Shown: positions 1,094 to 40,999, numbered from the stretch's first letter. The stretch is 64,000 nt of DNA from a virus (IMGVR_UViG_3300022562_002256:134046-198045), one strand, 5' to 3'. Notes: generated by a model not told the origin, from the sequence alone. Made by a program: numbers and translations.

Positions 1094-1109
1094 TGCACAA
1101 ACCGTGCCG
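1094..1109 (-). promoter_or_regulatory. sigma54-type -24/-12 promoter motif
   Basis: CGGCACGGTTTGTGCA (GG-N10-GC), back-to-back with the motif at 1128. Confidence 0.6.
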
Positions 1110-1127
1110 CGACGGGGACAACGCCCC

Positions 1128-1143
1128 CGGCACGGCCGTTGCA
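1128..1143 (+). promoter_or_regulatory. sigma54-type promoter motif
   Basis: CGGCACGGCCGTTGCA; ATG 14 nt after the -12 C. Confidence 0.7.
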
Positions 1144-1155
1144 CGCTCCCGGGGC

Positions 1156-1974
1156 ATGACCACCGACACTCTCGCCGTCCGCGCCACCGCCCGAGAGCTC
1201 GTCGCCGTGTTTCAGGAGGCTGCCGCCACCGTGCGCACGTGTTTCGGCGCGCTGCATGCGGCTGAGGCGCGCCTCGCCGCCGCCTTCTCGATGGCGGATG
1301 GGTACGCGCGCATCCGGATCCCAGCGACCCGGTGCCACCACTCGGCCGAGTTCGACCGGGCTGAAGAGTCCATCGCCGAGATGGCCCGGGACGCGTGGCG
1401 CGCCATCGTCGACCGACTCGACCTGCGCCGCCTGCTGTCCGTGGCACGCTATGAGCAACTCCAGACCGAGTTGGAGAAGGGGGCGCTCCCCGAGCTGACC
1501 GAGGACGCTGTGGTCGCCTTCGTACGGCGCTACGTCGACCAGATCGAGGAGATGCACGACGAGGCTGTGGCCGAGGTGTTCGAGTTCCTGCGCCCCCGAA
1601 GTCTCGGGATGAAGCGCCTCAAGACCAACTCCGAGCTCGAGGTGCCAGCCAAGGTCATCCTGCGGTTGGTGGCGCGAGGTCCCATGGGGTACTGGCGGCT
1701 GCGTTATTGGAAGGTGGCACAAAACCTCATCGCCCTGGAAAACGTCCTCCACGCGCTTGATGGTCGTGGCATGGTGGCATCCAGCAGTCGGAGCGCCCTA
1801 CAAACCGCGATCGAGGAGACCACAACGGGGACCGGGGAGACCGACCTGTTCTCGTTTCGGTGCTGCGAGAACGGGAACCTTCACTTGCGCTTCAAGCGAC
1901 TCGACCTGCTCGCCCGGCTCAATGCAAAGGCGGGCGGCAAGCGGCTTCGGCCGCCGACAGCGCCCTGTGCGTAA
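1156..1974 (+). CDS. DUF4942 domain protein
   Basis: C-terminal GETDLFSFRCCENGNLHLRFKRLDLLARLN resembles the DUF4942 signature; AWRAIVDRLDL and VFEFLRP blocks also fit. Confidence 0.7.
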   Translation: MTTDTLAVRATARELVAVFQEAAATVRTCFGALHAAEARLAAAFSMADGYARIRIPATRCHHSAEFDRAEESIAEMARDAWRAIVDRLDLRRLLSVARYEQLQTELEKGALPELTEDAVVAFVRRYVDQIEEMHDEAVAEVFEFLRPRSLGMKRLKTNSELEVPAKVILRLVARGPMGYWRLRYWKVAQNLIALENVLHALDGRGMVASSSRSALQTAIEETTTGTGETDLFSFRCCENGNLHLRFKRLDLLARLNAKAGGKRLRPPTAPCA

Positions 1975-2021
1975 ATCGTGCGCCTTCCGCCGCAGAATTT
2001 GCCGCGGCGGCCGTTGGCAAG

Positions 2022-2783
2022 TCATGCCTCTGCACCGATCCGCACGACCGGCACCACGCACCGGGTCCGGGTCGCCTGGTGCCAATAGGGGGCGCGTGTC
2101 CCGTCCACACGCTCACACCACGACCCCGGTGCGAGCATGGCCGGGTCTGATATACCTCCGTCGCGCACCAAAGGGAGCGACCGCTGCGGCGCCCCCTTCC
2201 ACACCAGCGATCGGTCGGCGTCGAGCCGCGTGAACTCGTACCCAAGCACCGTCCCCAGCCCACGGTTGTGGTCCCGGCCGAGCCCGCCGATGAAGTCGAG
2301 CAGCGTGGCGACCTTGCCACGGTCGCCGAGCAGCGCGAAGTCCAGGTAGGGCGTGGTCAGCGTGGCCACGGGAATATTCAGGCTTTTCCCCCAGCCCCCC
2401 GAGATGCCCAACCGCTCGATCGCGTAGTGTTCCGCTCGCGCGCGCTTGCGGCGCCACCGTTTCGACTCGACGGCGCACCGTGCTGGCCAGCCCCACGACG
2501 CGTGCGCGATCGGCCAGCCCCCGATCACCGAGTCCGCCACGGGGATCGGGATGTCGATCTTCGGCGTGCCGGCCGGAATCTCGGCGAACACGTCGTCGGG
2601 CAGCCGGCCGGTGGCGTCAAGCACCACGGCGAATTGGATGGCGCCGTCGATGGTGATTGCGTCCCGTCCATCCCACGCAACCGGCGACGCCAGCCACACG
2701 CGCACCCGGAACGGCTCGACTCGGCTACAGCCCCACCGCGCGCGAGATCGGGTCACCCACGGGGGTTCGACCCAGCCGATCAC
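2022..2783 (-). CDS. csf3: type IV CRISPR-associated Csf3 (Cas5-group RAMP)
   Basis: N-terminal EPFRVRVWLASPV strand; GKSLNIPVATLTTPYLDF..LGD...V..LL..IGGLGRDHNRGLGTV Gly-rich loop; GTGA-coupled to csf2 stop. Confidence 0.8.
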   Translation of the reverse strand: MIGWVEPPWVTRSRARWGCSRVEPFRVRVWLASPVAWDGRDAITIDGAIQFAVVLDATGRLPDDVFAEIPAGTPKIDIPIPVADSVIGGWPIAHASWGWPARCAVESKRWRRKRARAEHYAIERLGISGGWGKSLNIPVATLTTPYLDFALLGDRGKVATLLDFIGGLGRDHNRGLGTVLGYEFTRLDADRSLVWKGAPQRSLPLVRDGGISDPAMLAPGSWCERVDGTRAPYWHQATRTRCVVPVVRIGAEA

Positions 2784-4339
2784 GACGCGGCACCCCCGTC
2801 GCCCTCGCGCCCGCTGCGGCGTCGTCGACCGGCCTTTACGGGCCCCTTGGCGGCGGGTGGGGCTACCCCCGCGTCGCGCCCGGTCGGCGCGGTTTTGGCG
2901 GCACTCTGGCGCCGGCCTGGCCGGTCCTCGAGCAACCACGCGCGCAGCTCATCCCGGTGTTCCGCCACCCACGCCTGGTACACGGTCGGTGGCGGCAGCG
3001 GTGGTGCACTCCCGCCCGGGACATAAGCGACGAACCCCACCGCACCGAGCCCCCGGGCGTTCGCGGCGCCGACAAACCCGTCCTGCTGGAATTCTACGAG
3101 CAGATCGGCCATGCACGCCCCGGCCACCTCGCTCACGCCGTCCAGGCCGATGAGCTGAAATCTGTGCACCAACTGCACACCGGGGATGAGCACCTCCGTG
3201 TTGACCAGCATCTGCACGCCCTTGCAGTCCTCGATGTCCCGGTGGGCGTGGTGCGTCAGAAGTCTGAGTTGCGTGAGTGTGTCGGCCGGCTTCAGCGACG
3301 CCGTGAATTCGGGCAGCGTCATCGCGGCGCCATCGCGCGTCTTGGGCTGCAAGAGCGCATGCACCATCCACGCGTTCTCGCGGCACAGCAGGATCACGTC
3401 ATGCACCCGGAGCAGCCCTCGCATGATCTGCCCATCAACAACCCCCGCGAACAAGTCCCACGCGGGGCATACCGCGCGAGCACGCCGCCGAACCGCCACG
3501 TCCACCGCATCGCCGTCCGCCCCCGCCTCAATGGTTCCGCCCGACAGCAGCGCGTGGGCCCGGGGCGCCGGCAAGTCCTGTGCGGTCAACCCGACAAGCT
3601 GCAGCATGCGCCCCATGATGATGTCACGCCAGCATCCGCGGACCGCGTTGCCCGACACCAGCGGCACGATCGCGATCTCGCCTGTAACGGGTGACACCAC
3701 GCGCTGTCGCCGAAACATGGTCACGTTGCCGCTCTTCTCGTCGTGACCATGAGCCATGGGGGCGACCAGCGTCCACACGGCGGTGTATGCCCGGGGTGTG
3801 AGCAGGTCACCTGGCACCTCTGCGGTCCACGTCTCGGCACTGGCGGAGGCATCGGCCCACGGGGTGAACAACGCCTCCTCTCCGTCGACCGGCGGCGCCG
3901 TTGCGAAGGTGGCGAACAGCGCGGGGCTCTCCGTCACCGCAAGCCGGAGCGCATCGAAATCAATCGCTTTGCACACCGCTGTCCAGGAGACGGCTGCCGT
4001 GGTCTCGTCCGCCTCGGGATGCTCAATCTCCAGCACGCCCGCCGGCACGAGCAACCGCGGGATGAGCACGTACACCGGCCGGGCCGTGATCTCCTTGCCT
4101 TCGTCGTTCTCAAAAGTCCCGCCCGTCTCATTTATGCTGAACCGCTGGCACAGCATCCGGGTGAACTCAAGCGTCGACCGCGCGCTGGTCACCATGGGCA
4201 CAAGGGCGTCGCGTAGTTCCTCGCTGATGTTGCGGCGGCGCCGCCGAGGAATGCCCTCCCAATCGACGCGGCGCCACAGTGCCCGGAGCAGGTAGGCCAT
4301 GAGTGCGGTCGCGGCATGAATCGCAGGCGGTGTCGTCAT
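2780..4339 (-). CDS. csf2: type IV Csf2 (Cas7) with N-terminal Cas11/small-subunit-like helical domain fused in frame
   Basis: TLVAPMAHG, GNVTMFRRQRV, VPLVSGNAVRG.WRD, LLSGG, P.WDLFAG, QMLVNTEVLIPG, FVGAANARGLGAV are Csf2 motifs; N-terminal ~170 aa is helical (LWRRVDW..LEFTRMLCQRF); GAGGA RBS before ATG 4339. Confidence 0.85.
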   Translation of the reverse strand: MTTPPAIHAATALMAYLLRALWRRVDWEGIPRRRRRNISEELRDALVPMVTSARSTLEFTRMLCQRFSINETGGTFENDEGKEITARPVYVLIPRLLVPAGVLEIEHPEADETTAAVSWTAVCKAIDFDALRLAVTESPALFATFATAPPVDGEEALFTPWADASASAETWTAEVPGDLLTPRAYTAVWTLVAPMAHGHDEKSGNVTMFRRQRVVSPVTGEIAIVPLVSGNAVRGCWRDIIMGRMLQLVGLTAQDLPAPRAHALLSGGTIEAGADGDAVDVAVRRRARAVCPAWDLFAGVVDGQIMRGLLRVHDVILLCRENAWMVHALLQPKTRDGAAMTLPEFTASLKPADTLTQLRLLTHHAHRDIEDCKGVQMLVNTEVLIPGVQLVHRFQLIGLDGVSEVAGACMADLLVEFQQDGFVGAANARGLGAVGFVAYVPGGSAPPLPPPTVYQAWVAEHRDELRAWLLEDRPGRRQSAAKTAPTGRDAGVAPPAAKGPVKAGRRRRSGREGDGGAAS

Positions 4340-4446: not shown

Positions 4447-4462
4447 TGGCACGATGCATGCA
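4447..4462 (+). promoter_or_regulatory. sigma54-type promoter motif
   Basis: TGGCACGATGCATGCA upstream of ORF 4500 and the cysH-like gene. Confidence 0.65.
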
Positions 4463-4499: not shown

Positions 4500-4730
4500 A
4501 TGAGACGACGTGTCATTGTCGACCCGTACACGCCCGGTAGACACGTCAATGCGATGACCATCGACGATGACACGGGCAAGCGAATTTTCGTCTTCCCCCG
4601 CCCCGGCAGCGTGGTCGTAGGTGTCTGTGAGCGCAAGAAGGCAGCGAGCGTTCTCCTACGAGTCGAGGAGGTTGACGACCTCCTCGCCGCCCTGCGTGAC
4701 GCGAGCGCCGTGGCAGGAGGCAAACCGTGA
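4500..4730 (+). CDS. hypothetical protein
   Basis: GGAGGA RBS, 76 aa, follows a G11 tract. Confidence 0.6.
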   Translation: MRRRVIVDPYTPGRHVNAMTIDDDTGKRIFVFPRPGSVVVGVCERKKAASVLLRVEEVDDLLAALRDASAVAGGKP

Positions 4731-4874: not shown

Positions 4875-5834
4875 ATGGCTGACCGCTCCCGGTTCGAGTC
4901 GACGTGCCCGTGCCCCGCGTGCGGCGGGTGCGCATGCCGGTGGCTGCTGCGTATGCCCGCTACCGTGTGCCAGTCTGTGCCACGATGTGCCTGCTCACGA
5001 GGGTTGGCTGCCGACGAGCCTGTCCTGTGGCCCACCGACGTCGCTGCGTGGGCCCGGTGGATGGCCGCGGCCCGCATCCATGCCCGCTCGGTGGCTCACC
5101 GCCGCGTTGTCGAGCAGGCACGGCGGGCGGTGGACCAGGCGCTTGTCGGCGCGTCGACGGCATGCGTGATGGTGAGCGCAGGAAAGGACTCGACCATCCT
5201 CGCGCACGTGGTGACGGCGTTGATGGGGCGGCACGACGTGACGTTGGTGTCCGAAAAAGATGACCTCGACTACCCGGGGGAGGAGGAGTACCTGCGGCTC
5301 CTCGCCGCGGAGTGGGGGGCAACGCTCCGCGTCGTACGGCCGCGCGTATCTCCAGCCGAATGGATTCGATCGCGAGGAGCCACACGCGCTCACCGGGCCG
5401 CGGATGACATCCACTCACGCGCGGCTGGGCTGAGCAAGGCGTGCTTTTATCGCGTGGTCGAGGCGGTCAACGCCGAGTACGATGTCGTGATGCTCGGTCT
5501 CCGTGCGCAGGAGAGCACGGTTCGACGAATCGTAAGGCACAGGCGGGGGCTGGTCTACACGCTCGCGTCGGGGCAGCGCCGGGCCAACCCGCTGTTCGAT
5601 TGGCGAGGGCTTGACCTCTACGCCTACGCCGAGAGCCACAGCATCCCCCTGCTGCCGCTCTATCGGTGCATCGCGTTCATGCACGAGCGCCGGCCGTGGG
5701 ACGTGCGTAAGGCGTGGTGGCTCCCCGGGGGCCATTCTACACGCAACGGCGGAGTCGCGTGGCTCAAGCACTACTTCCCCACACTGTATGATCAACTTTG
5801 CGAATGGATCCCAGGCGCGCCCGCCTATCGGTGA
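4875..5834 (+). CDS. cysH: CysH-like (PAPS reductase / PP-loop) protein of the type IV-B-associated kind, with Cys-rich N-terminal extension
   Basis: SAGKDS PP-loop, KDDLDYPGE, GLRAQES..RR, ANPLFDW...DLYAY....IPLLPLY; no C-terminal ECGLH of true CysH; adjacent to csf2/csf3. Confidence 0.85.
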   Translation: MADRSRFESTCPCPACGGCACRWLLRMPATVCQSVPRCACSRGLAADEPVLWPTDVAAWARWMAAARIHARSVAHRRVVEQARRAVDQALVGASTACVMVSAGKDSTILAHVVTALMGRHDVTLVSEKDDLDYPGEEEYLRLLAAEWGATLRVVRPRVSPAEWIRSRGATRAHRAADDIHSRAAGLSKACFYRVVEAVNAEYDVVMLGLRAQESTVRRIVRHRRGLVYTLASGQRRANPLFDWRGLDLYAYAESHSIPLLPLYRCIAFMHERRPWDVRKAWWLPGGHSTRNGGVAWLKHYFPTLYDQLCEWIPGAPAYR

Positions 5835-6068
5835 GTCATCCCCCCTCTTGCGCTGGCTGTGGGGTGGGTTGCACATCAGTTTATGTGGCGGGTGTGGAGC
5901 GGGGGGGTAGGCGGCGCAAGGCTTGCGCCGAACCGGCAGAATTTACCTGCGCCGATCCGGCACGATTTCCCAAACGACACGACACCCACGCGACGCACAC
6001 GTGGCGTAGCGCACGAAAGTCTTGCGCGCCTATTTGGGCACGCGCGCAAGAAAACGAGGGCCGGAGTG

Positions 6069-6084
6069 TGGCACGGGCAATGCA
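6069..6084 (+). promoter_or_regulatory. sigma54-type promoter motif
   Basis: TGGCACGGGCAATGCA; ATG at 6098 opens only a 17-aa ORF. Confidence 0.6.
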
Positions 6085-6759: not shown

Positions 6760-6986
6760 GTCGGCCTCGCCCACCACTCCGTCTTGCACGTTGTGCAGAC
6801 CAACCACTCCACGACATTGGCACACCGGCGCCACGCGTGGCACACACTGCACCACTTTTCCACGACCGTCGTCTCCGTCGCATACAAAGGGGTGCTGATA
6901 ACCACCCCTTGCATGGTCACAAGATCGACGGGCGCTCCAGTCAAGCGCTCGACGCGTCGATTCCGTTCTTCCCCGTGGGTGTGCAT
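6756..6986 (-). CDS. small zinc-ribbon protein
   Basis: CSVC...CTTC; ATG 14 nt after sigma54 -12 element. Confidence 0.6.
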   Translation of the reverse strand: MHTHGEERNRRVERLTGAPVDLVTMQGVVISTPLYATETTVVEKWCSVCHAWRRCANVVEWLVCTTCKTEWWARPT

Positions 6987-6998
6987 GCCAGCCATCAA

Positions 6999-7014
6999 TG
7001 CACATACCGTGCCA
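6999..7014 (-). promoter_or_regulatory. sigma54-type promoter motif
   Basis: TGGCACGGTATGTGCA. Confidence 0.7.
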
Positions 7015-7672: not shown

Positions 7673-8217
7673 GGCGGGCCACACCAGCCCCACCACAGGC
7701 TGATGAACATGTCGGCCGCCGCCGACAACGCCGCGTCGTGATCCTCGTAGATGCCGGTCACACGGTCGGGTTCGTCTTGCATGCGCACGATGCCGACGTG
7801 GCCGCCGCGGCAGAGCCCCGTCGTCGGGTATGGCCCATTGGGGAGCGCCTCCGTTATGGCCCACGCAGCCCGCTGCATAGGCGACAGATCCGCCCATGCC
7901 ACGCAGTGCGGATTCCCACCACACGCGGCGGCGTACGTCTGTTCGCCGGCTGACGGTGCCGAGTTGTCCACCGGCGCTGGAGGAGACTCACTCGCGTCCC
8001 AGCGCTCGACTATCGCGCCGGTGCCGGTGACATCGCGCATGCCCACCGCGCAGTCCAGAAATTCCCCCCCAGCGATTTCGCGCGCGCGCACGCCATGGGC
8101 GGTGTGGCCCCCACAGAACAGCAATACCGTGCTTTCCGCCAGCCCGTCAACCACGCGGCGCCGCCAATAGAGCCGCCCCGGCGTGGGCCGCCACGCCGCA
8201 TCAATCACATCGCCCAT
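7666..8217 (-). CDS. hypothetical protein
   Basis: GGAGGAG RBS, downstream of sigma54 motif at 8248. Confidence 0.6.
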   Translation of the reverse strand: MGDVIDAAWRPTPGRLYWRRRVVDGLAESTVLLFCGGHTAHGVRAREIAGGEFLDCAVGMRDVTGTGAIVERWDASESPPAPVDNSAPSAGEQTYAAACGGNPHCVAWADLSPMQRAAWAITEALPNGPYPTTGLCRGGHVGIVRMQDEPDRVTGIYEDHDAALSAAADMFISLWWGWCGPPC

Positions 8218-8247: not shown

Positions 8248-8263
8248 TGCACGCCGTGTGCCA
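8248..8263 (-). promoter_or_regulatory. sigma54-type promoter motif
   Basis: TGGCACACGGCGTGCA. Confidence 0.7.
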
Positions 8264-15493: not shown

Positions 15494-15738
15494 GCTCGTT
15501 CTCGCCCTTCCTTAACCGCCCGCTCCAACGGACCCGGTTCTCGCTCCTCTGTCGACGGTTGTGCCGAATACAGTGTCACCGTCAGCCCGCCGACCGAAAT
15601 GGTCACCGTCTTGCTCGCGGCGGAGTCGGCTACCATCGCTGCCACTGCGCGTGCCCGCGGGGCCACCCATCGGCGCGCGCTCATGCCGACGGTGTGCACA
15701 TCACGTGCCAAGCCCCGCGCTACATCACCAATCTTCAC
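15490..15738 (-). CDS. hypothetical protein
   Basis: GGAGG RBS, ATGA coupling downstream. Confidence 0.45.
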   Translation of the reverse strand: MKIGDVARGLARDVHTVGMSARRWVAPRARAVAAMVADSAASKTVTISVGGLTVTLYSAQPSTEEREPGPLERAVKEGRERA

Positions 15739-16620: not shown

Positions 16621-16652
16621 GTGTGGCACCATAACCACGGCCGAGCCGCGTG

Positions 16653-16934
16653 TCAGCCGTACACCGGCCGCATCTGCTCGTCGAACCTCGGCGGCTTCCC
16701 CTTGAGGGCTTCACGCACCTGCCGAGCCGACCACTGGTCAGGCATGACATCCCATTCGCACAGCACCAACATGCGGTTGATCTGCAGCAGTTGCGCCGCC
16801 GTGAAGCGATCATTGAACGACTCGGCGGTGGCGTCCATGTTGGAGCGCAACAGGCGGATTTCCTCCGCCCCCGTGAGCACCTCGCCGTCCACAACCAACC
16901 TGCCCCGTTCGACTCTGTTCTTGGCCTTGTCCAT
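16653..16934 (-). CDS. hypothetical protein
   Basis: ATG 16 nt after sigma54 -12 element. Confidence 0.6.
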   Translation of the reverse strand: MDKAKNRVERGRLVVDGEVLTGAEEIRLLRSNMDATAESFNDRFTAAQLLQINRMLVLCEWDVMPDQWSARQVREALKGKPPRFDEQMRPVYG

Positions 16935-16948: not shown

Positions 16949-16964
16949 TGCACGATCCATGCCA
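16949..16964 (-). promoter_or_regulatory. sigma54-type promoter motif
   Basis: TGGCATGGATCGTGCA, identical to 40984-40999. Confidence 0.7.
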
Positions 16965-18462: not shown

Positions 18463-18478
18463 AGCACGTGCCGTGCCA
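18463..18478 (-). promoter_or_regulatory. sigma54-type promoter motif
   Basis: TGGCACGGCACGTGCT. Confidence 0.7.
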
Positions 18479-19937: not shown

Positions 19938-20105
19938 CGGTCCTCCTGTCAGCGATGCGCTGCCGAAGTTGATCGTGAGTCGGCGGCTCCACAATGGCGC
20001 GCGGGCCGAGCGAGGTGACGAGGCGGGGTCGGGTGGTCGTCGTGGTAGGCATGCTAGACTTGGGGTGCACTTTCCGTGCCGAGCGATGTCGTACGCGCCC
20101 GATTG

Positions 20106-20674
20106 TTATGCGGCCTTGCGGGCCGTGGCGCGGGTGCCTGCCGACATCCCCAGGTGCACATCGAGCGCTGGGCGGGGCTGCCTGCCGATCTCGCGCCACC
20201 AACGCATTCTGGCGGCCAGGCATCCGCCGGGCTCCTCAAAGTCATGGTTTCCGCCCCGCCCCTCAAGAGCTAGTGCGTTTAGTTCGGCATGTGTAATCCC
20301 TCGCCTACCTTGTCGGCCCCACCCGACTGCGCAAACGCTCTGCGCGCGGTCGTCGGTTACGAGGAACCCGTCCATGTTTTCGTGCCAGCGGGATCCGATA
20401 CGGATCCCGCCGGGCGCCCGAAGCCACTCGGGCCAGGCCGTCCAGATTCGGAGCGCGCGGCGCTCGCCAAGCGACTCGACGTGCTCGACAACGCCGTCTA
20501 GAAGCGAATCTCCGGGCTCGACCTCACCCGCGTGGATCACGCGCTGCACGCGCGTGAAGCCGCGGTCGTCGATGGGGCCCACCGGTAGCACGTGGAGTGT
20601 CGTCAAGTCGACACTCCGGCCGCCATCGAAATGGATCCGCACGGCTCTGCCATGCGTCCAGCGCAGGTGTACAT
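20106..20674 (-). pseudogene. hypothetical gene with apparent 1-nt frameshift right after ATG
   Basis: AAGGAGAG RBS + ATG at 20674 is out of frame with the long GC3-rich frame; adding one G (ATG GTA CAC) restores it. Confidence 0.45.
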
Positions 20675-20712: not shown

Positions 20713-20728
20713 TGCACGTGGCGTGCCA
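20713..20728 (-). promoter_or_regulatory. sigma54-type promoter motif
   Basis: TGGCACGCCACGTGCA, identical to 29473-29488. Confidence 0.7.
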
Positions 20729-22254: not shown

Positions 22255-22270
22255 TGCACGTGCCGTGCCA
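22255..22270 (-). promoter_or_regulatory. sigma54-type promoter motif
   Basis: TGGCACGGCACGTGCA, identical to 38180-38195. Confidence 0.7.
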
Positions 22271-23083: not shown

Positions 23084-23099
23084 TGCACTGTCCGTGCCA
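23084..23099 (-). promoter_or_regulatory. sigma54-type promoter motif
   Basis: TGGCACGGACAGTGCA. Confidence 0.7.
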
Positions 23100-23211
23100 T
23101 CGTGGCGCGGCAACCGCACGGCGCGCTGGTCGTGTGCGGCCTTACGGTGGCGGATCGGCGTCGATCCACGCCGTGTCAATGATTTTGGGCACTTAGCCGC
23201 GCCGGCGGGGC

Positions 23212-23315
23212 GTGGCATGTTGCCACACCGTGGCAGACCGCCACACGTCGCAGAACCAGCACTCAAGTGGCTGCCAGCACGCGGTCCTGGAACAAATCCG
23301 TGGCAGAACGCCACA
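23212..23315. repeat. three palindromic GTGGC-N5-GCCAC boxes
   Basis: boxes start at 23212, 23230 and 23300; the last two lie in 18-mers CCGTGGCAGA(C/A)CGCCACA with 17/18 identity. Confidence 0.7.
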
Positions 23316-23376
23316 ACCAATACTGAACACGGCGCCGGGGAGAGCGGGAACACCACGCCCTCACGCCCCACCGCCC

Positions 23377-23495
23377 GCGCGCTTCTTGCGTTTAGCCGGC
23401 AGAATTTACCGGCACCTGCTGACAGCCGGTTGAGCGCTAGATCGTGCGTGCCGACGTGAGCGGATTCACCGACTCGGCAAAATCGACGCGCAAAC
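23377..23495 (+). repeat. 119-bp dispersed repeat, copy 1
   Basis: ungapped manual alignment to reverse complement of 36706-36824 gives 103/119 identity. Confidence 0.9.
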
Positions 23496-23599
23496 GGTGC
23501 GCCAAGGGGCGATAGTCCAGAATCGTGGAGCGGGCTGTTCGCCCCGAATTGTGCCGCAAACGCAAGAGCGCACGCGGAGACGTCCCTCCCCTCGCCAAG

Positions 23600-23615
23600 T
23601 GGCACGGTGCGTGCA
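23600..23615 (+). promoter_or_regulatory. sigma54-type promoter motif
   Basis: TGGCACGGTGCGTGCA; ATG 15 nt after the -12 C. Confidence 0.7.
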
Positions 23616-29245: not shown

Positions 29246-29459
29246 GATGCCCTCGTGGTGGCAGTGAGCCTATCGCTCCGCGGAGAAGGCGTAGGTCCCA
29301 CTCGGCCTCGGCGCGGGTGTGGCGCCACACTGGTTGGGCGGCGTCATCGCACAGCGCGACCAGCGCATCCATCGCGTTCTCGGATGGAAAACGGATGAGC
29401 GCAACCGCTTGGTAGAGCGGCCCGGTCGCGCTCATCCGCTCCTCGATGAAAAGGCTCAT
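29238..29459 (-). CDS. hypothetical protein
   Basis: ATG 15 nt after sigma54 -12 element. Confidence 0.55.
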   Translation of the reverse strand: MSLFIEERMSATGPLYQAVALIRFPSENAMDALVALCDDAAQPVWRHTRAEAEWDLRLLRGAIGSLPPRGHHE

Positions 29460-29472: not shown

Positions 29473-29488
29473 TGCACGTGGCGTGCCA
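29473..29488 (-). promoter_or_regulatory. sigma54-type promoter motif
   Basis: TGGCACGCCACGTGCA. Confidence 0.7.
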
Positions 29489-29515: not shown

Positions 29516-29531
29516 TGGCACAGCGCATGCA
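29516..29531 (+). promoter_or_regulatory. sigma54-type promoter motif
   Basis: TGGCACAGCGCATGCA; divergent partner of 29473; ATG 15 nt after the -12 C. Confidence 0.65.
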
Positions 29532-29544: not shown

Positions 29545-29883
29545 ATGGTGAGTGTTGTGATGCATGATGCAATTCTCCGCCTCGCGCGCGGCGAGTTTAC
29601 CACCGACCTGGCGCGGGTGTGGCGGCGCCTGCCGACCGAATGCCGCCACGACGGTGCCGCCGCGGCACGCGCGGCGCGCACCGTTCGGATGCACACCAGT
29701 CGGTGGAGGTCCGACGGGCATGGCGGGTGGGTGCATGTGAACGGGCTCGGATTTCAGACGGTTGCCCTTGTCCACGGTTGGCACCGTGGCTGGGTTCTGA
29801 TCAAGCCGTCGGGGGTGCGCCTCTGGTATCCATCCCCCGCAAAGGCTATCAGGGCGTGGGCCAAACGCCGTCCACCTTGCTAA
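29545..29883 (+). CDS. hypothetical protein
   Basis: apparently leaderless start after sigma54 motif. Confidence 0.5.
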   Translation: MVSVVMHDAILRLARGEFTTDLARVWRRLPTECRHDGAAAARAARTVRMHTSRWRSDGHGGWVHVNGLGFQTVALVHGWHRGWVLIKPSGVRLWYPSPAKAIRAWAKRRPPC

Positions 29884-31193: not shown

Positions 31194-31427
31194 CGGATGC
31201 TCGGACTCGCCCATCGGCTCGAAGGGGTCGACGGCCAGCCGCCCGAGAGGCGACAGATCACGCCGTTGATCACCGCGCTTCCCCGTCAAGTAGCCAGCGC
31301 GGATGAGTCGGCGGATGGCTGCTTCAGGAAGCACATGGTCGCCCACCTTCCACCGCCGACCATCGCGTACGGCGCCGTGTGTCCCAACGGCGCCCAAGAT
31401 TGCTCGCTCAGCGGGTGTTATGCCCAT
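31158..31427 (-). CDS. small winged-helix-like protein
   Basis: ITPAERAIL...IRRLIRAGYL...LSPLGR. Confidence 0.5.
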   Translation of the reverse strand: MGITPAERAILGAVGTHGAVRDGRRWKVGDHVLPEAAIRRLIRAGYLTGKRGDQRRDLSPLGRLAVDPFEPMGESEHPLKDDESYGGDS

Positions 31428-31504
31428 AGTCCACGGAACAGGGGCGCAAGGACACGAGCTGCGAGGTAGGCTGGGTTTAACGTTTTCATGTTTCCGTGTT
31501 CGTG

Positions 31505-31520
31505 TGCACGGCTCGTGCCA
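31505..31520 (-). promoter_or_regulatory. sigma54-type promoter motif
   Basis: TGGCACGAGCCGTGCA; ATG at 31489 opens a 23-aa ORF overlapping the next start. Confidence 0.65.
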
Positions 31521-33565: not shown

Positions 33566-34660
33566 TCAAGTCTCATCATCAAACAGCTTGAGCTGCGTCC
33601 CCTTCGGAGGAAGCGGCTTGCTCGGCTTCACCGCCGATGGCTCGCTCTGCGCTGTCTTCTCGGGATGAGCAGCCGCCCACGCGAAGAGATCACCCTGCCG
33701 TTCGGCCATCGCCGCAGGCGTCGGAGCGGGCTTGCTCCCCGGCGTAGGGACGGCACGAAGCCAGACGCCGGTGCTCGTCTTCCGCGAGGCACCTGGCGCG
33801 CCTGGACGCGGCGTGAGGGGTTGCGGACTCGGAGCTTCCCCTTCGGGTTCGGACAGGCACGCCGCGACGAACTCCTCAGCGCTCCACACGTGGTCCGTGA
33901 TGCCCGATTGCATCGCGGGGGTCACGCGCAGGGCCATGTGCACACGACAGAAGTTGAAGAAGCCTACGTACGCGCTGATCGAGGCGCGGTGATGCGCGAG
34001 CGTCTTGGACGCGCCCGTGCCTCTCCGGACGAGGCGCCGTAGCTGCGTCCTGAACGAGAGGTTGAGCCGCTCCGCGTGCGACGTGGAGCACTCGTCCAGG
34101 TTCGGCGCTCCCCAGATCGTGCGCTTCGTCATGCCGGGCCCGTCGCTCTTCAGACGACCGCGCTTGCCGCCGTTGAAGCTCTTGACGACCTGCGCATAGT
34201 CGATGTCGGTGAACGCCGCTCCGACAGCTCGGGGGTAGCCGGGGTACGCGTCCGTCGACAGCACGGGGATCGTGACCAGCCTCGCTCGGAGGTCCGCGAG
34301 GAACGCGTCCGTGGTCTCTTGGGTGCGCTTACCGACGCGGTACGACACGACGAGCTTCGCGGTCTTGGCGCTCGCGAGGTACACCCACTGCTCGCCGATC
34401 GCGTCGTCATGCACCTCGGGGAGGTTCTTCTCCCTCACCTTGACGTAGCTGTGCAGCTCGTCCCCTTCGATGTGCTCGATGCTCAAGCCGCGGACGAGGC
34501 GGTCATGAACACGGTCGTACCCCTGTCCGATCGCGAGCAAGAGGCGCAGGACCGTGGGTTGACTGACGTCGGTCAACCTCGATGCGGCACGCACCCCCGC
34601 CCCCTCCATGAGGTGCGCAAAGACCTCGGCTTGACGCGACAGCGGAAGCACGTTCGCCAT
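33566..34660 (-). CDS. IS1-family DDE transposase
   Basis: N-terminal HTH (EGAGVRAASRLTDVSQPTVLRLL), DELHSYV, YRVGKRT, STD, STS.AER.NL..R..LRR, TPAM..G.TD.VW. Confidence 0.92.
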   Translation of the reverse strand: MANVLPLSRQAEVFAHLMEGAGVRAASRLTDVSQPTVLRLLLAIGQGYDRVHDRLVRGLSIEHIEGDELHSYVKVREKNLPEVHDDAIGEQWVYLASAKTAKLVVSYRVGKRTQETTDAFLADLRARLVTIPVLSTDAYPGYPRAVGAAFTDIDYAQVVKSFNGGKRGRLKSDGPGMTKRTIWGAPNLDECSTSHAERLNLSFRTQLRRLVRRGTGASKTLAHHRASISAYVGFFNFCRVHMALRVTPAMQSGITDHVWSAEEFVAACLSEPEGEAPSPQPLTPRPGAPGASRKTSTGVWLRAVPTPGSKPAPTPAAMAERQGDLFAWAAAHPEKTAQSEPSAVKPSKPLPPKGTQLKLFDDET

Positions 34661-36271: not shown

Positions 36272-36574
36272 TTAGTCGTCGTACCATCCGTCATCGTCAT
36301 CGCAATCGGCGGTGTGGTTGGGGGCATCGAGGAGGATCGCGTCCTCCTCGGCCGGGGTCAACTCACCGCCCCATACAACCATGATCGACCGCCCGAAGGC
36401 GTCGAGGACCAGGTTCCCCGCCTCGTCGCGCTTCTCGACGAGGATCTCGTCGATCTCGGCGTCGGCCGGCTCACCGACAGACCGGTCGGCGGGATAAAGG
36501 ATGACGCAGACCGTCAGTTCGACCATCTCGTCATCTCGCTCGACCTCGTACCCCATCTCGATGTGCGTCGTCAT
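36272..36574 (-). CDS. acidic hypothetical protein
   Basis: ATG 14 nt after sigma54 -12 element. Confidence 0.6.
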   Translation of the reverse strand: MTTHIEMGYEVERDDEMVELTVCVILYPADRSVGEPADAEIDEILVEKRDEAGNLVLDAFGRSIMVVWGGELTPAEEDAILLDAPNHTADCDDDDGWYDD

Positions 36575-36586: not shown

Positions 36587-36602
36587 TGCACGGTCCGTGC
36601 CA
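36587..36602 (-). promoter_or_regulatory. sigma54-type promoter motif
   Basis: TGGCACGGACCGTGCA. Confidence 0.7.
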
Positions 36603-36705
36603 GGTGACGTCGACGCCCCTGGTTGTTGTGGGCTTGTGTTTGCGGCGCATCTCCGCTCGGCGGGGGGCGCCCCTTCGAATCTGGAAAGCAGGGTTCGCAC
36701 GCGCG

Positions 36706-36824
36706 GTTTGCGCGTCGATTTTGGCGAGTTGGTGAATCCGATCACGGTGGCACGCACGATCTGGCACTCAAGTGGCTCTCAGATTATGCCGGTAAATTCT
36801 GCCGGCCAAACGCAAGAAGTGCGC
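36706..36824 (-). repeat. 119-bp dispersed repeat, copy 2 (inverted)
   Basis: see copy 1 at 23377-23495. Confidence 0.9.
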
Positions 36825-36878
36825 ACGTCTCAGGGAGGCGAGTCCACGGGCGGCGGTGGCACGGCGGCCTGCGCGCCA

Positions 36879-36894
36879 TGGCACGCATTGTGCA
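36879..36894 (+). promoter_or_regulatory. sigma54-type promoter motif
   Basis: TGGCACGCATTGTGCA; ATG 14 nt later opens a 25-aa ORF. Confidence 0.7.
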
Positions 36895-36980
36895 ACGAGG
36901 ACCGTCATGGGCACACACATCATTGCGGATATAGGGGCGCCGCCGTCCGGCGCATGCACCGTGTCAAGCGAGGAGGGGTC

Positions 36981-37760: not shown

Positions 37761-37791
37761 CGCGCCCTGCGGGTGTTGGTAGAGAAATGAT

Positions 37792-38085
37792 ATGGCTCGA
37801 ACCAAGAAACAACCAGCACAATCCATGCCAGGCGCACCGATCAGCGACGACCGCGTGGCGGACGACTCGATCGCGCGCAAGCCCCTTCCTGGAGGATGCC
37901 CGGTCCAGCTTTGGCCCGTGGAACTGGCGTCGGGGCTTCGCGTGGTCGAGCCCCCAGCGCACGGTGATCTCTTCGCATGGGCGGCGTCAAGGCCCGCTCA
38001 GGGGACACAACTCAAGCTGTTCGATTCCGCGGGCGGGGTCGGTGATGACGATGACGGACATGGGAGGACCACGCCCCGAGGATGA
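37792..38085 (+). CDS. small protein with QLKLF clamp-binding-like motif, similar to the transposase tail
   Basis: GDLFAWAA and GTQLKLFD are also present in the transposase C-terminus. Confidence 0.55.
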   Translation: MARTKKQPAQSMPGAPISDDRVADDSIARKPLPGGCPVQLWPVELASGLRVVEPPAHGDLFAWAASRPAQGTQLKLFDSAGGVGDDDDGHGRTTPRG

Positions 38086-38179: not shown

Positions 38180-38195
38180 TGGCACGGCACGTGCA
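38180..38195 (+). promoter_or_regulatory. sigma54-type promoter motif
   Basis: TGGCACGGCACGTGCA; ATG 15 nt after the -12 C. Confidence 0.7.
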
Positions 38196-38208
38196 AGCGT
38201 GCCCCGGC

Positions 38209-38769
38209 ATGAAGGCGCCCATCACCAACACCGCCCGGGTCGCTATAGGCTTCCGCGATGTGCCTCGGTTTCCAGAAGCACGCTACGAGATCACGGTCGA
38301 TTGGCGTGACCTGGAGGGTCACATCGGAGCCATCGACAAAGATCGTGGGTTCGTCATGGAGCCGGACTACCAGCGCGGTCACGTGTGGACTGACGCGCAG
38401 CGGTCGGCTTACATCGAGTACGGGCTCATGGGGGGCGAGTCGTCGATGGTAATCACCGTCAACTGCGCTGAGTGGATTTCCGGACTTGACGCGCAGGTCG
38501 AGTTACTCGATGGGCTGCAGCGTGTCACGGCGGTGAGGATGTTCCTCCGCGGCGATGCCACAGCGTTCGGACAGCGCGTGCATGAATTTGGAGACATCCG
38601 CCGTTGTCGAGCGGGCTTCCGGTGGCGCGTGCTCACGCTCGCGACGCGGGTGCAGGTGCTCCGGCAATACCTGCTCATGAACTCGGGGGGTGTTGTTCAC
38701 TCGCCCAAGGAGATCGCGCGCGTGCGGGCGTTGCTGGACGCGGCGCAAAGAGAGGGTGACGCCGCGTGA
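38209..38769 (+). CDS. standalone DUF262 (GmrSD N-terminal / ParB-like) protein
   Basis: PDYQRGHVWT..Q...YIE, LLDGLQRVTAV..F, LMNSGG..HS..EI. Confidence 0.8.
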   Translation: MKAPITNTARVAIGFRDVPRFPEARYEITVDWRDLEGHIGAIDKDRGFVMEPDYQRGHVWTDAQRSAYIEYGLMGGESSMVITVNCAEWISGLDAQVELLDGLQRVTAVRMFLRGDATAFGQRVHEFGDIRRCRAGFRWRVLTLATRVQVLRQYLLMNSGGVVHSPKEIARVRALLDAAQREGDAA

Positions 38770-38786
38770 CATTTTGGCCATGGCAG

Positions 38787-38855
38787 ACCACGCCGATGGG
38801 ATGGACGAATCCCGGGCTGAGACCCGAGACCGCCCGAACCAGCAACACCAACGGA
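38787..38855 (+). repeat. 69-bp RNA-like element, copy 1
   Basis: first 40 bp 36/40 identical to 56891-56930; CACCAACGGA recurs at identical spacing. Confidence 0.85.
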
Positions 38856-38862
38856 GGCACAC

Positions 38863-39564: not shown

Positions 39565-39577
39565 ATAACCACGGCGT

Positions 39578-39593
39578 TGGCACGCTTTGTGCA
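39578..39593 (+). promoter_or_regulatory. sigma54-type promoter motif
   Basis: TGGCACGCTTTGTGCA. Confidence 0.7.
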
Positions 39594-39643
39594 ACGCCCA
39601 AGCACATCTCGCGCTTGTTCAACGCGCGAGTATGGAGATGCTC

Positions 39644-39913
39644 ATGCCAACCAGAAAAATCGCCGATATGCCGCTCCCCGACCAATGGCGGCGGGTGTGC
39701 ACGCATCCCGAACACAACCCGCCATCGATGATGGTGTACCAACCCGGGGTGTACGAGCACACGTGTCCCGGGTGCGGTCGACGCGTAACGTTCACCGTGC
39801 CCATGGTGTGGTGGTCTACTAAGCCGCTCGCGTGGTGCCATCAGCCGAGCGATGACGATGCCTCTGCTCAGGCTTACAGGCGGGGCAGAGCGACGCTCCC
39901 GCCGACCCTATGA
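39644..39913 (+). CDS. small Zn-binding protein
   Basis: C.HPEHNPP.M....PG.YEHTCPGCG. Confidence 0.6.
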   Translation: MPTRKIADMPLPDQWRRVCTHPEHNPPSMMVYQPGVYEHTCPGCGRRVTFTVPMVWWSTKPLAWCHQPSDDDASAQAYRRGRATLPPTL

Positions 39914-40461
39914 GATATCGCTGCGCCGGCGGCGTGGTCTACTCGGCGCGTGTGGATCACCGCGCCGACCCGGACGCGTTGATGGTCACCATCAGGCCGC
40001 TGGCCAGCGATGCGCCTGACCTTATCGGTTCCGCGTTCGCCCCGTCGCATCAGATATGGTCTGCGGCCATGCGTGCCCGAGATGAGGCGGCCGAGTGGCG
40101 GAGGCGGGGTGACGACCTGTTGGAGGCACCTACCGCGGTCGAGAGGGTGGCATGCTACGCGCGCGCAGAGCGGATCGAGGCTGAGGCGTGGGCGGCATAC
40201 ATGCCAGCGTTCATGGCCGAGATGCGTGTCAGTGCGGGGCTGCCTCCAAGTCGGTGGGGGCCCGGCGAGCGGGCGGCGGACCAGCGCGGGGTGGTAGCGC
40301 GACGGGACGCGTGGGAGCACGTGCTCAGCCGCGATCGTGTGGTTGTGCTGTGCTACTGTGTGGTGGCACCGTTGCCGGCTGAGCTGCGATGCCATCGGGT
40401 GTTGCTCCGGCGAGACATCTTGCCGGCCATGGGCATGAGGGACGGCGGTGAGCTGCGGTGA
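39910..40461 (+). CDS. DUF488-like protein
   Basis: FAPS, W..Y...F..EMR.S, W..VL....VVVLCYC.....CHR..L. Confidence 0.5.
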   Translation: MRYRCAGGVVYSARVDHRADPDALMVTIRPLASDAPDLIGSAFAPSHQIWSAAMRARDEAAEWRRRGDDLLEAPTAVERVACYARAERIEAEAWAAYMPAFMAEMRVSAGLPPSRWGPGERAADQRGVVARRDAWEHVLSRDRVVVLCYCVVAPLPAELRCHRVLLRRDILPAMGMRDGGELR

Positions 40462-40510
40462 ACCCGGCACAAGTGCCCAGGCACTTCAGTGGGAGAGGCC
40501 GGCGCCGACA

Positions 40511-40936
40511 TCACGATGATGGAGGGCACTCGTGTTGGTCCCACGGCGGAAACGGGAACTTGAGCATAGCGACGCGGACGTCGAAGGGCTTGTAGACGCC
40601 GCTTGCGATGAGCTTTCCGTCGACCAGACGGACGGTGCCGCTCCACGTGTGCCCGAAGGGCTCGCTGTTCCATGACCATGGCTCGCGGCTCACGAGCGAG
40701 CAGCCCGTGTCAGCGAGCAGCCCGTCGAGGTCGGTGGGGAGCACCAAAGTCGTCCACCCCTCGATACCGTGCGCGGGGTCGGCGTAGAACAGAATGGCGC
40801 GCGTGGCGAACTGGACATCGCCGCCAACCAACCCCACCTTGAGGATTTCGTAGGGCCTGGCGATCGTGGTGGGATCGTCGACGAAGCGGCTTCCGCACTT
40901 GGGGCAGAGGAGGATGGCGGGGAGGGGTGTATCCAT
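40511..40936 (-). CDS. hypothetical protein with N-terminal CPKCG
   Basis: single ORF opposite to flanking operons. Confidence 0.5.
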   Translation of the reverse strand: MDTPLPAILLCPKCGSRFVDDPTTIARPYEILKVGLVGGDVQFATRAILFYADPAHGIEGWTTLVLPTDLDGLLADTGCSLVSREPWSWNSEPFGHTWSGTVRLVDGKLIASGVYKPFDVRVAMLKFPFPPWDQHECPPSS

Positions 40937-40983
40937 AAGCGCGTCCTGTGCAAGACGCGGGCCGCCTTGAGGGGCGGCCCGGG

Positions 40984-40999
40984 TGGCATGGATCGTGCA
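40984..40999 (+). promoter_or_regulatory. sigma54-type promoter motif
   Basis: TGGCATGGATCGTGCA. Confidence 0.7.

What the first reader, a model, noticed from the sequence alone, without database searches (positions are those of the whole stretch)
1094..40999. Genome-wide sigma54-type promoter set driving phage accessory genes
Seen: 20 intergenic (T/C)GGCA(C/T)-N7-TGC(A/T) motifs with exact GG-N10-GC spacing, at 1094-, 1128+, 4447+, 6069+, 6999-, 8248-, 16949-, 18463-, 20713-, 22255-, 23084-, 23600+, 29473-, 29516+, 31505-, 36587-, 36879+, 38180+, 39578+ and 40984+. Nearly all point into a downstream gene, three pairs are identical 16-mers, and I noticed none in the structural region. Established: this is the RpoN -24/-12 consensus, and sigma54 needs an AAA+ enhancer-binding protein; none is visible in the window. 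Inference: the phage ties its early programme to a host sigma54 activator or state, as in myxobacteria.
Basis: partly seen in the sequence, partly recalled or inferred. Interest (0 to 1): 0.82.

Follow-up and report, generated by a model that had tools for sequence, protein, structure and literature searches.

The report
Phage-wide sigma-54-type promoter set
A 198-kb uncultured phage places about 70 copies of the bacterial sigma-54 promoter signature in front of its small non-structural genes, usually 12-13 bases before the ATG. It therefore seems to run much of its programme on an enhancer-dependent host sigma factor and to make nearly leaderless mRNAs, although it encodes no activator for that factor.

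Summary
It occurs 24 times in the window against 1.8 expected, and 68 times in the whole 198,045-bp phage genome.

- **Specificity:** only this spacing is enriched. 49 of 68 sites lie in the 19% of DNA that is non-coding (P about 1e-21).
- **Direction:** the element is directional and points into the next gene.
- **Distance to the ATG:** 39 of 68 sites have an ATG 11-14 nt downstream with no Shine-Dalgarno. Most others have longer leaders with GGAGG.
- **Match to sigma-54:** the consensus TGGCACGG-NNC-GTGCA fits the sigma-54 consensus yTGGCACGrnnnTTGCw at every strongly conserved position but one.
- **Other phages:** four further IMG/VR contigs carry the motif. The three I fetched share no protein homology with this phage beyond three hits (two to DNA-modification genes) and show the same ATG spacing. 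None of the four has a sigma-70-family gene in the sequence held, so the reader of the motif is probably host-encoded.
- **What the phage lacks and has:** no sigma-54, no bEBP, no GAFTGA motif and no T7-like polymerase. It does encode three sigma-70-family factors and uses a second, sigma-70-type promoter class in the motif-free zones.

The host is unknown and the source of activation is unexplained. Other agents of this scan noted similar promoter sets in unrelated phages. I found no published precedent.

The parts
1094..1109 (-). -24/-12 motif CGGCACGGTTTGTGCA. It sits back to back with 1128+, with 18 bp between them. GAGG and a GTG at 1070 open an 86-aa ORF (810-1070).
1128..1143 (+). -24/-12 motif. 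An ATG 12 nt downstream at 1156 opens a 272-aa ORF with no SD (leaderless class).
4447..4462 (+). -24/-12 motif. A 37-nt leader carries GGAGGA before the ATG at 4500 (76 aa). The cysH-like gene follows.
6069..6084 (+). -24/-12 motif. The ATG 13 nt downstream opens only 17 codons, and the site faces a convergent gene. It may give a small peptide or an antisense RNA. A partial cassette-B element lies upstream (GGCAGAATTT at 5935).
6999..7014 (-). -24/-12 motif. An ATG 12 nt downstream at 6986 opens a 76-aa ORF (leaderless class).
8248..8263 (-). -24/-12 motif. A 30-nt leader carries GGAGGAG before the ATG at 8217 (183 aa).
15695..15710 (-). -24/-12 motif inside a minus-strand operon. An ATG 10 nt downstream at 15684 opens 64 codons.
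16949..16964 (-). -24/-12 motif TGGCATGGATCGTGCA, the same 16-mer as 40984+. An ATG 14 nt downstream at 16934 opens a 93-aa ORF.
18463..18478 (-). -24/-12 motif. An ATG 13 nt downstream at 18449 opens a 67-aa ORF.
20066..20081 (-). -24/-12 motif. An ATG 13 nt downstream at 20052 opens a 41-codon ORF that runs into the start of a 410-aa gene.
20713..20728 (-). -24/-12 motif, the same 16-mer as 29473-. A 38-nt leader carries AAGGAG before a 23-codon ORF that overlaps the next gene start.
22255..22270 (-). -24/-12 motif, the same 16-mer as 38180+. An ATG 22 nt downstream at 22232 opens a 166-aa ORF.
23084..23099 (-). -24/-12 motif at the outer edge of cassette A. An ATG 12 nt downstream at 23071 opens a 109-aa ORF.
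23100..23599 (.). 500-bp divergent control region made of cassette A (reversed) plus cassette B. It holds three GTGGC-N5-GCCAC palindromes (23212, 23230, 23300) and the B core GCCGGCAGAATTTACCGGC (23395). Candidate enhancer or operator DNA.
23600..23615 (+). -24/-12 motif TGGCACGGTGCGTGCA, the commonest 16-mer (six copies in the genome). It lies 205 bp from the cassette-B core. An ATG 13 nt downstream at 23629 opens an 81-aa ORF.
29473..29488 (-). -24/-12 motif, back to back with 29516+ with 27 bp between them. An ATG 13 nt downstream at 29459 opens a 73-aa ORF.
29516..29531 (+). -24/-12 motif. An ATG 13 nt downstream at 29545 opens a 112-aa ORF.
31505..31520 (-). -24/-12 motif. An ATG 15 nt downstream at 31489 opens a 23-codon ORF that overlaps the ATG of the next ORF at 31427.
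36587..36602 (-). -24/-12 motif, 204 bp from the reversed cassette-B core. An ATG 12 nt downstream at 36574 opens a 100-aa ORF.
36603..36878 (.). Cassette B, reversed (core at 36788), lying between divergent motifs.
36879..36894 (+). -24/-12 motif. An ATG 12 nt downstream at 36907 opens a 25-codon ORF.
37815..37830 (-). Weak match (TGGCAT...GTGCT) with no ATG downstream. Doubtful, possibly chance.
38180..38195 (+). -24/-12 motif. An ATG 13 nt downstream at 38209 opens a 186-aa ORF.
39578..39593 (+). -24/-12 motif. A 38-nt leader precedes the ATG at 39632 (93 aa).
40984..40999 (+). The last motif before the head genes. GGAGGA and an ATG at 41021 open a 19-codon ORF that overlaps the ATG at 41077 of a 105-aa gene.
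61259..61274 (+). Weak match inside the 839-aa gene at 59292-61811. Most likely chance.
16628..16637 (-). Example of the second promoter class: TGGTTATGGT with an ATG 7 nt downstream. This is a sigma-70-type -10 directly before a start codon, shown for contrast.

Best explanation
The motif is a set of about 70 sigma-54-class (-24/-12) promoters, most likely read by the host RNA polymerase carrying host sigma-54.

Transcription would start about 11-12 nt after the final A of the motif. That makes roughly half of the transcripts leaderless or nearly so, with 0-3 nt before an AUG and no Shine-Dalgarno. The rest carry 20-100-nt leaders with GGAGG, or start RNAs with no ORF.

The promoters front the clusters of small, mostly unknown non-structural genes, often as divergent pairs. 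One of them appears to front a phage sigma-70-family factor. The replication zone and the head and tail zones lack the motif. They use a sigma-70-type class, TTGACA-N12-13-TGGTTATGGT, and hold two more phage sigma genes. This suggests a cascade in which sigma-54 promoters form one temporal or conditional class.

Open-complex formation at sigma-54 promoters needs an AAA+ activator, and the phage encodes none. The activator is therefore inferred to be a host bEBP or an unrecognised phage factor. It may act through the conserved palindrome-rich cassettes A and B that lie about 100-200 bp upstream of about 14 of the promoters.

Shown here: the motif, its spacing, direction and position, its recurrence in other phages, and the absence of phage sigma-54 and bEBP genes.
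For: - **Enrichment and spacing.** The window holds 24 sites against 1.8 expected. The genome holds 68, and only the N6 spacing is enriched. The relative entropy is about 22 bits.
- **Match to the consensus.** The sites agree with yTGGCACGrnnnTTGCw (quoted in PMC12754779) and with TGGCACnnTTnTTGC (PMC8743547). The one difference is G instead of T at about -15.
- **Non-coding and co-oriented.** P = 1.7e-21 for non-coding location. 58 of 68 sites point the same way as the next gene.
- **Fixed distance to the ATG.** ATG counts peak at 12 nt (14 sites) and 13 nt (20 sites). 39 of 68 sites have an ATG at 11-14 nt, against 3% at random positions for an ATG opening an ORF of at least 35 codons. 33 of these open ORFs with coding potential and, in all but three, no SD-like match. 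14 other sites have longer leaders with an SD-like match.
- **No room for another promoter.** Back-to-back divergent pairs lie only 16-27 bp apart.
- **Directional, not symmetric.** 24 of 26 GCACG-N3-CGTGC cores carry TG on exactly one flank, and none carries it on both.
- **No hairpin covariation**.
- **Predicted +1.** Two ORF-less sites share a 13-mer that begins exactly at the 11th nt after the motif.
- **Internal control.** The sigma-70-type class places the ATG 6-7 nt after its -10 element. Each class therefore has a distance of its own, and that of the sigma-70-type class fits its polymerase geometry.
- **Other phages.** Contigs G001 (18 sites), G003 (7) and G004 (7) carry the motif with an ATG 11-15 nt downstream in most sites of G001 and G003 and three of seven in G004. 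Their only homology to this phage is three tblastn hits, two of them to DNA-modification genes. G002 carries five sites. None of these contigs has a sigma-70-family gene or a clear bEBP in the sequence held.
- **Nothing in the phage to read it.** There is no sigma-54, RpoN box, bEBP, GAFTGA or T7-like polymerase.
Against: - The host is unknown, so the presence of sigma-54 in it is untested.
- Heavy use of leaderless mRNA is best known from phyla that lack sigma-54 (Actinomycetota, Deinococcota).
- No activator was found, and most promoters have no visible upstream enhancer.
- The -15 base is G rather than the consensus T in 53 of 68 sites.
- A relative with a 56%-identical portal (L026, 21.6 kb around the packaging and head genes) has no copy of the motif, so conservation among true relatives could not be shown.
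- The strict motif-plus-ATG pattern is at background level in 301 Acidobacteriota and 251 Methylomirabilota genomes.
- There are no transcript data.
Confidence: 0.68

Rival explanations
1. The motif is a promoter, but it is read by something other than sigma-54. That could be an unrecognised phage-encoded specificity factor, or a host factor in a lineage without rpoN, and it would happen to prefer a sigma-54-like sequence.
For: The host is unknown. Leaderless mRNAs are typical of phyla that lack sigma-54. No bEBP is present. G replaces T at -15. The phage encodes three sigma factors and many unknown proteins.
Against: The two blocks are only 5-6 bp apart, which does not fit sigma-70-family -35/-10 geometry. 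The five other motif-bearing contigs have no sigma-70-family gene in the sequence held, and the three I fetched share almost no proteins with this phage. A common, host-encoded reader is therefore more economical. The 7-mer TGGCACG plus TGCA at exact spacing is the sigma-54 signature.
Confidence: 0.15
2. The sites bind sigma-54 holoenzyme, or a phage repressor, without firing. They would act as directional operators, roadblocks or polymerase-docking sites, like the oriented stoperators of cluster A mycobacteriophages or the 'repressive' RpoN sites of E. coli. Transcription would come from elsewhere.
For: Sigma-54 holoenzyme forms stable closed complexes without an activator. PMC8743547 proposes that RpoN holoenzyme on such sites represses transcription. 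No activator is encoded.
Against: Divergent gene pairs have nothing but two motifs between their ATGs. The fixed 12-13-nt distance to ATGs that lack an SD is hard to explain unless the mRNA starts there. Where leaders are longer, an SD appears.
Confidence: 0.1
3. The element works as a hairpin: GCACG, a 3-nt loop, then CGTGC. It could be an N4-type single-strand hairpin promoter, or an RNA or DNA structure for processing or termination.
For: About 30 of 68 sites can form a 5-bp stem with a 3-nt loop.
Against: There is no compensatory change. All 12 sites with A at position 7 fail to pair with position 11 (C in 11, A in one). All 8 sites with A at position 12 keep C at position 6. The conserved TG/A flanks lie outside the stem. 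No T7/N4-like polymerase domain was found, though that search had no positive control.
Confidence: 0.04
4. The motif is a chance or selfish repeat with no regulatory role.
For: Some copies lie in repeated cassettes.
Against: None of 100 shuffles reaches the count. The spacing, strand and position are all specific. Most copies lie outside repeats and in front of unrelated genes.
Confidence: 0.02

Closest known systems
Bacterial sigma-54 (RpoN) -24/-12 promoters such as glnAp2, pspA and nifH, activated by bEBPs (NtrC, PspF, NifA)
   Same: GG and GC doublets lie exactly 10 bp apart. The extended TGGCACG...TGCA consensus is present. Sites lie just upstream of genes and point into them. Some are preceded by palindromic upstream elements at enhancer-like distances.
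   Different: About 70 copies sit in one phage genome, with no bEBP gene. G is preferred at -15. About half give 0-3-nt leaders. Many have no room for an enhancer. Membership is not proven, because sigma-54 dependence is untested.
Leaderless mRNA expression from a -10 element placed next to the ORF (Deinococcus-Thermus, Actinomycetota; PMC12340547 title and abstract; definition of <=5 nt in PMC12754779)
   Same: The promoter-to-ATG distance is fixed, the start codon is AUG and there is no SD. The phage's own TGGTTATGGT class behaves exactly this way.
   Different: Here the same design is combined with a -24/-12 promoter. I found no description of that combination in the library searched.
Phage sigma cascades, such as SPO1 gp28 then gp33/34 and T4 gp55/gp33 with the sliding clamp (from my own knowledge)
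   Same: The phage encodes several sigma-family factors, its own beta clamp, and promoter classes with separate genomic territories.
   Different: One class looks like host sigma-54 rather than a phage sigma. The temporal order is not known.
Stoperators of cluster A mycobacteriophages (from my own knowledge)
   Same: Many copies of a short asymmetric site lie in intergenic DNA, oriented with transcription.
   Different: Stoperators are repressor sites that block elongation. Here the sites are the only candidate start signals between divergent genes, and they sit at a fixed distance from ATGs.
Sigma-54-type promoter sets noted by other agents of this scan in unrelated uncultured phages (e1-5525078, e1-3429583, e1-3539627)
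   Same: Many -24/-12 motifs front phage genes, the ATG lies 13-14 nt downstream in one case, and no activator is visible.
   Different: These are different phages, probably with different hosts. The notes are unchecked AI leads, not evidence.

Membership tests
sigma-54-dependent promoter | Conserved GG and GC doublets exactly 10 bp apart | tested here: met
   68 sites have the N6 spacing. Neighbouring spacings give 1-10 sites.
sigma-54-dependent promoter | Extended consensus yTGGCACGrnnnTTGCw | tested here: met
   The consensus here is TGGCACGG-NNC-GTGCA, compared with the consensus quoted in PMC12754779. The only departure is G for T at about -15, in 53 of 68 sites.
sigma-54-dependent promoter | Transcription starts about 11-12 nt downstream of the GC | not testable with these tools
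   Support is indirect only. The ATG peak lies at 12-13 nt. An SD appears only in longer leaders. A shared 13-mer begins at the 11th nt after the motif at two ORF-less sites.
sigma-54-dependent promoter | Sigma-54 (RpoN) is present in the transcribing cell | not testable with these tools
   The host was not identified. The phage itself has no sigma-54 domain or RpoN box.
sigma-54-dependent promoter | A cognate AAA+ bEBP with a GAFTGA loop | tested here: not met
   This was tested in the phage only. PF00158 gave only P-loop-level hits. There is no GAFTGA in any of the six frames. The one classic AAA protein, g91, is of the Cdc48/proteasome type. A host bEBP cannot be assessed.
sigma-54-dependent promoter | An upstream activator sequence about 80-200 bp away | tested here: inconclusive
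   Cassettes A and B carry palindromes upstream of about 14 of 68 promoters. The B core lies 181-210 bp from a promoter in 7 of 7 copies. Many promoters have no room for such an element.
leaderless mRNA | At most 5 nt between the start site and an AUG, with no Shine-Dalgarno | tested here: inconclusive
   The sequence features fit at 33-39 sites. The start sites themselves are not measured.
N4-type hairpin promoter | A stem of 5-7 bp and a 3-nt loop are required, read by a virion RNA polymerase | tested here: not met
   There is no compensatory covariation. No RNA_pol (PF00940) match was found, but the control genomes did not ring either, so that absence is weak.
sigma-70-family promoter | -35 and -10 elements about 17 bp apart | tested here: not met
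   The blocks of the motif are 5-6 bp apart, and no TAnnnT follows it. A separate TTGACA/TGGTTATGGT class exists elsewhere in the genome.

The most novel reading that the evidence does not exclude
A scattered group of uncultured phages runs most of its non-structural genes from sigma-54 promoters fused directly to leaderless ORFs, while encoding no AAA+ activator. This would imply a phage-made factor of a new kind that unlocks sigma-54 holoenzyme, or a way to exploit a constitutively active host activator. The repeated palindromic cassettes would act as portable enhancers.
Probability: 0.3. Interest if true: 0.85.

Novelty: new variant of a known kind. Interest (0 to 1): 0.72.

Why it matters
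Sigma-54 transcription is the one bacterial mode that needs ATP-driven activation from an enhancer. Phages are not known to build their programmes on it.

A phage with about 70 such promoters and no activator gene raises a sharp, testable question: who fires them? The answer would show one of three things:
- a phage tying its gene expression to a host signalling state;
- a new class of sigma-54 activator or de-repressor;
- unexpected activator-independent use of sigma-54.

The direct fusion of -24/-12 promoters to leaderless ORFs is also a compact expression design that could be tested and reused. Its recurrence in unrelated phage contigs suggests an overlooked strategy rather than an oddity.

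Tried and rejected
- **Host identification failed.** Megablast and tblastn of head and tail genes against cultured phages gave nothing close. An IS-like transposase has relatives of at most 39% identity in Rokubacteria, Chloroflexota and Acidobacteria MAGs. Atlas look-ups of DnaN and RecD2 were taxonomically uninformative. NCBI-sourced portal clusters carry no names. The csf2-like gene is only 27-30% identical to actinobacterial and haloarchaeal plasmid genes.
- **Bacterial scans gave no lead.** The strict motif-plus-ATG pattern is at background in 301 Acidobacteriota and 251 Methylomirabilota genomes.
- **Relatives were uninformative.** No close relative turned up in IMG/VR by exact 19-mer or by portal peptide patterns. 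A Logan contig with a 56%-identical portal has no motif in 21.6 kb, but that stretch is mostly packaging and head genes.
- **Myxophage lead rejected.** Myxophage Mx4 has no copy of the motif.
- **No known RNA in the cassettes.** Rfam found nothing there.
- **Activator candidate rejected.** g91 belongs to the Cdc48/proteasome AAA clade and has no homologue in the other motif-bearing contigs.
- **Literature.** Eight searches found no phage described as using sigma-54 promoters (one search was malformed).


Full report
**What the window is.** The window is the last 64 kb (134,046-198,045) of a 198,045-bp IMG/VR virus record. The record has a 144-bp direct terminal repeat, is rated complete, and has 66% G+C. 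It has no close relative among cultured phages. Window 41-64 kb holds a Mu-like portal and protease and other virion genes.

**Checking the observation.**
- The pattern as written, with N7, gives 2 hits, which is chance.
- With N6, which is what GG-N10-GC means, there are 24 hits in the window against 1.79 expected. None of 100 shuffles came near.
- The whole genome has 68 strict sites, plus three intergenic TGGCGC/TGGCCC variants found by a weight matrix.
- Only the N6 spacing is enriched: counts are 68 against 1-10 for N2-N10.
- By my own crude gene calls, 49 of 68 sites are fully non-coding although only 18.8% of the genome is (P = 1.7e-21).
- 58 of 68 point the same way as the next gene.
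- The motif is absent from genome 58-106 kb and 175-198 kb, apart from two weak intragenic matches.

**Anatomy.**
- The consensus is TGGCACGG-NNC-GTGCA.
- After the motif, ATG counts peak sharply at 12 nt (14 sites) and 13 nt (20 sites). 39 of 68 sites have an ATG at 11-14 nt. Only 3% of random positions have an ATG there that opens an ORF of at least 35 codons.
- 33 of these ATGs open ORFs of at least 38 codons with coding potential, and in 30 of them the spacer holds no Shine-Dalgarno-like match.
- 14 other sites have leaders of about 20-110 nt that do carry an SD-like match, often GGAGG. The absence of an SD is therefore specific to the short spacing.
- Several sites open 17-25-codon ORFs that overlap the next start codon.
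- Two sites without an ORF share the 13-mer GGCGTAACGACGG, beginning exactly at the 11th nt after the motif. Nothing else around them is similar.
- Three divergent pairs sit back to back with only 16-27 bp between the motifs. Nothing else in those regions could serve as a promoter for either gene.

**Is it a palindromic operator or a hairpin?** The core GCACG-N3-CGTGC is palindromic in about 30 sites.
- 24 of 26 perfect cores carry TG on exactly one flank and none carries it on both, so the element is directional.
- There is no compensatory change. All 12 sites with A at position 7 fail to pair with position 11 (C in 11, A in one). All 8 sites with A at position 12 keep C at position 6.
- The bases therefore behave as independent contacts on double-stranded DNA, not as a stem.

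**What reads it?**
- The sequence matches the sigma-54 consensus yTGGCACGrnnnTTGCw (Bush and Dixon, as quoted in PMC12754779). It also matches the E. coli holoenzyme-selected TGGCACnnTTnTTGC (PMC8743547). The single difference is G for T at about -15.
- The two blocks are too close together for a sigma-70-family -35/-10 pair.
- The phage has no sigma-54 domains, RpoN box, bEBP domain, GAFTGA loop or T7-like polymerase.
- Its one classic AAA protein, g91, is of the Cdc48/proteasome type.
- It does encode three RpoS/RpoD-like sigma factors, at 22.6, 77.6 and 95.5 kb. The first of them, on the minus strand, lies just downstream of the motif at 23514.

**The test with other phages.**
- A scan of IMG/VR for the motif plus 12-13 nt plus ATG found contigs with several hits.
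- With the looser pattern TGGCAY-N6-TGCW, G001 (62 kb) has 16 sites against 0 for the control. G003 (36 kb) has 7 against 2, G004 (63 kb) has 7 against 1, and G002 has 5 against 3. The pattern used throughout this report (YGGCAY) raises G001 to 18.
- In the three contigs I fetched (G001, G003, G004) the ATG again lies 11-15 nt downstream in most sites of G001 and G003 and in three of seven in G004. The only homology to this phage is three tblastn hits, one short (g25 in G003) and two in G004 (g179, a D12-class methyltransferase, and g184).
- None of the five contigs has a sigma-70-family gene or a clear bEBP in the sequence held.
- Phages that share almost no genes but share this signal point to a host-encoded reader. 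The known host protein with this specificity is sigma-54.

**A second promoter class as an internal control.**
- The motif-free zones use TTGAC(A/G)-N12-13-TGGTTAT(G/C)(G/C)T.
- Several copies place an ATG exactly 6-7 nt after the -10 element. That is the geometry of a leaderless transcript from a sigma-70-type promoter.
- Leaderless expression is therefore general in this phage. Each promoter class keeps the ATG at a distance of its own, and that of the sigma-70-type class fits its polymerase geometry.

**Possible enhancers.**
- Two families of conserved non-coding cassettes sit between divergent motif promoters or upstream of them.
- Cassette A has 4 copies, each with three GTGGC-N5-GCCAC palindromes.
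- Cassette B has 7 copies, with the core GCCGGCAGAATTTACCGGC.
- The B core lies 181-210 bp from an outward-facing motif in 7 of 7 copies. The intervening roughly 70 bp is conserved in length but not in sequence.
- A shared element, AGCCACTTGAGTGC, lies within 220 bp upstream of 14 promoters.
- The genes downstream of the cassettes are not paralogues, and Rfam finds no RNA in the cassettes.
- G003 has its own upstream 18-bp palindrome.
- All this fits enhancer or operator DNA, but most promoters have nothing comparable.

**Weak points.**
- The host is unknown despite many attempts.
- The activator is unexplained.
- Conservation in true relatives could not be tested. The one relative fetched covers mainly late genes and has no site.
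- G001's portal is nearest to that of myxophage Mx4 (35% identity), but Mx4 has no site at all.
- There are no transcript data.

**Verdict.**
- The sigma-54 reading is the best-supported one, at about 0.7.
- The claims about early timing and myxobacteria are untested.
- I found no published phage with such a promoter set.
- Other agents of this scan report similar sets in unrelated uncultured phages. I treat those notes as leads only.

Noticed in passing
genome 22641-23429(-), 77556-78608(+), 95491-96246(+) (loci L004, L006, L007): The phage encodes three RpoS/RpoD-like sigma-70-family factors. They are 35-53% identical to one another. The first lies downstream of a sigma-54-type motif, and the other two lie in the motif-free zone.
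   Followed up: partly
window 16628(-), 53927(-), 6898(-); genome 8413, 19744, 51075, 55749, 69484, 70495, 71472, 73124, 73185, 88725, 103547: A second promoter class, TTGAC(A/G)-N12-13-TGGTTAT(G/C)(G/C)T. In several copies an ATG lies exactly 6-7 nt after the -10 element, giving leaderless genes from sigma-70-type promoters.
   Followed up: partly
window 23100-23599 and 36603-36878; genome about 14.2, 15.3, 23.6, 46.7, 49.9, 106.4, 117.8, 119.7 kb: Two families of conserved non-coding cassettes, 130-250 bp long and rich in palindromes (GTGGC-N5-GCCAC three times; GTGGATC-N6-GATCCAC; GCCGG-N9-CCGGC). They lie between divergent promoters in front of unrelated genes.
   Followed up: partly
genome 46963-46975(+) and 49710-49722(-) (L005): A shared 13-mer, GGCGTAACGACGG, begins at the predicted +1 of two promoters that have no ORF close behind. 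It may be the common 5' end of non-coding RNAs, one of them lying upstream of tRNA-Tyr (47664-47751).
   Followed up: partly
genome 48186-49349(+) (L005:8186-9349): A phage-encoded DNA polymerase III beta sliding clamp (DnaN, three Pfam domains).
   Followed up: no
window 2022-4339(-) and 5004-5834(+): A RAMP/Csf-like operon with a neighbouring gene that an earlier scan note reads as cysH-like (a type IV-B-like locus). The 519-aa RAMP-like protein is 27-30% identical to genes on actinobacterial and haloarchaeal plasmids. The operon is not fronted by the sigma-54-type motif. A TACAAT-like -10 lies upstream on the minus strand.
   Followed up: partly
window 33566-34660(-): An IS1/IS66-like DDE transposase gene in a stretch of lower G+C (62%). 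Its nearest relatives, at no more than 39% identity, are in Rokubacteria, Chloroflexota and Acidobacteria MAGs.
   Followed up: partly
window 43588-43606: A perfect 19-bp palindrome, GTGGCACAAAGTGTGCCAC, in the 308-bp gap upstream of the portal gene. It scores as a weak motif on both strands.
   Followed up: no
window 38740-38826 and 56844-56930: An 87-nt direct repeat (77% identity) that contains a GGGTGACGC/GCGTCACCC inverted repeat. Function unknown.
   Followed up: no
window 20603-20674(-), 31418-31489(-), 41021-41080(+): ORFs of 19-23 codons start just after motif promoters and overlap the start codon of the next gene. They may be translationally coupled leader ORFs.
   Followed up: no
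genome 63714-64940(-) (L006:3714-4940): A 408-aa protein with an unknown N-terminal half and a classic Cdc48/proteasome-type AAA domain. It is the only classic AAA+ ATPase in the phage.
   Followed up: partly
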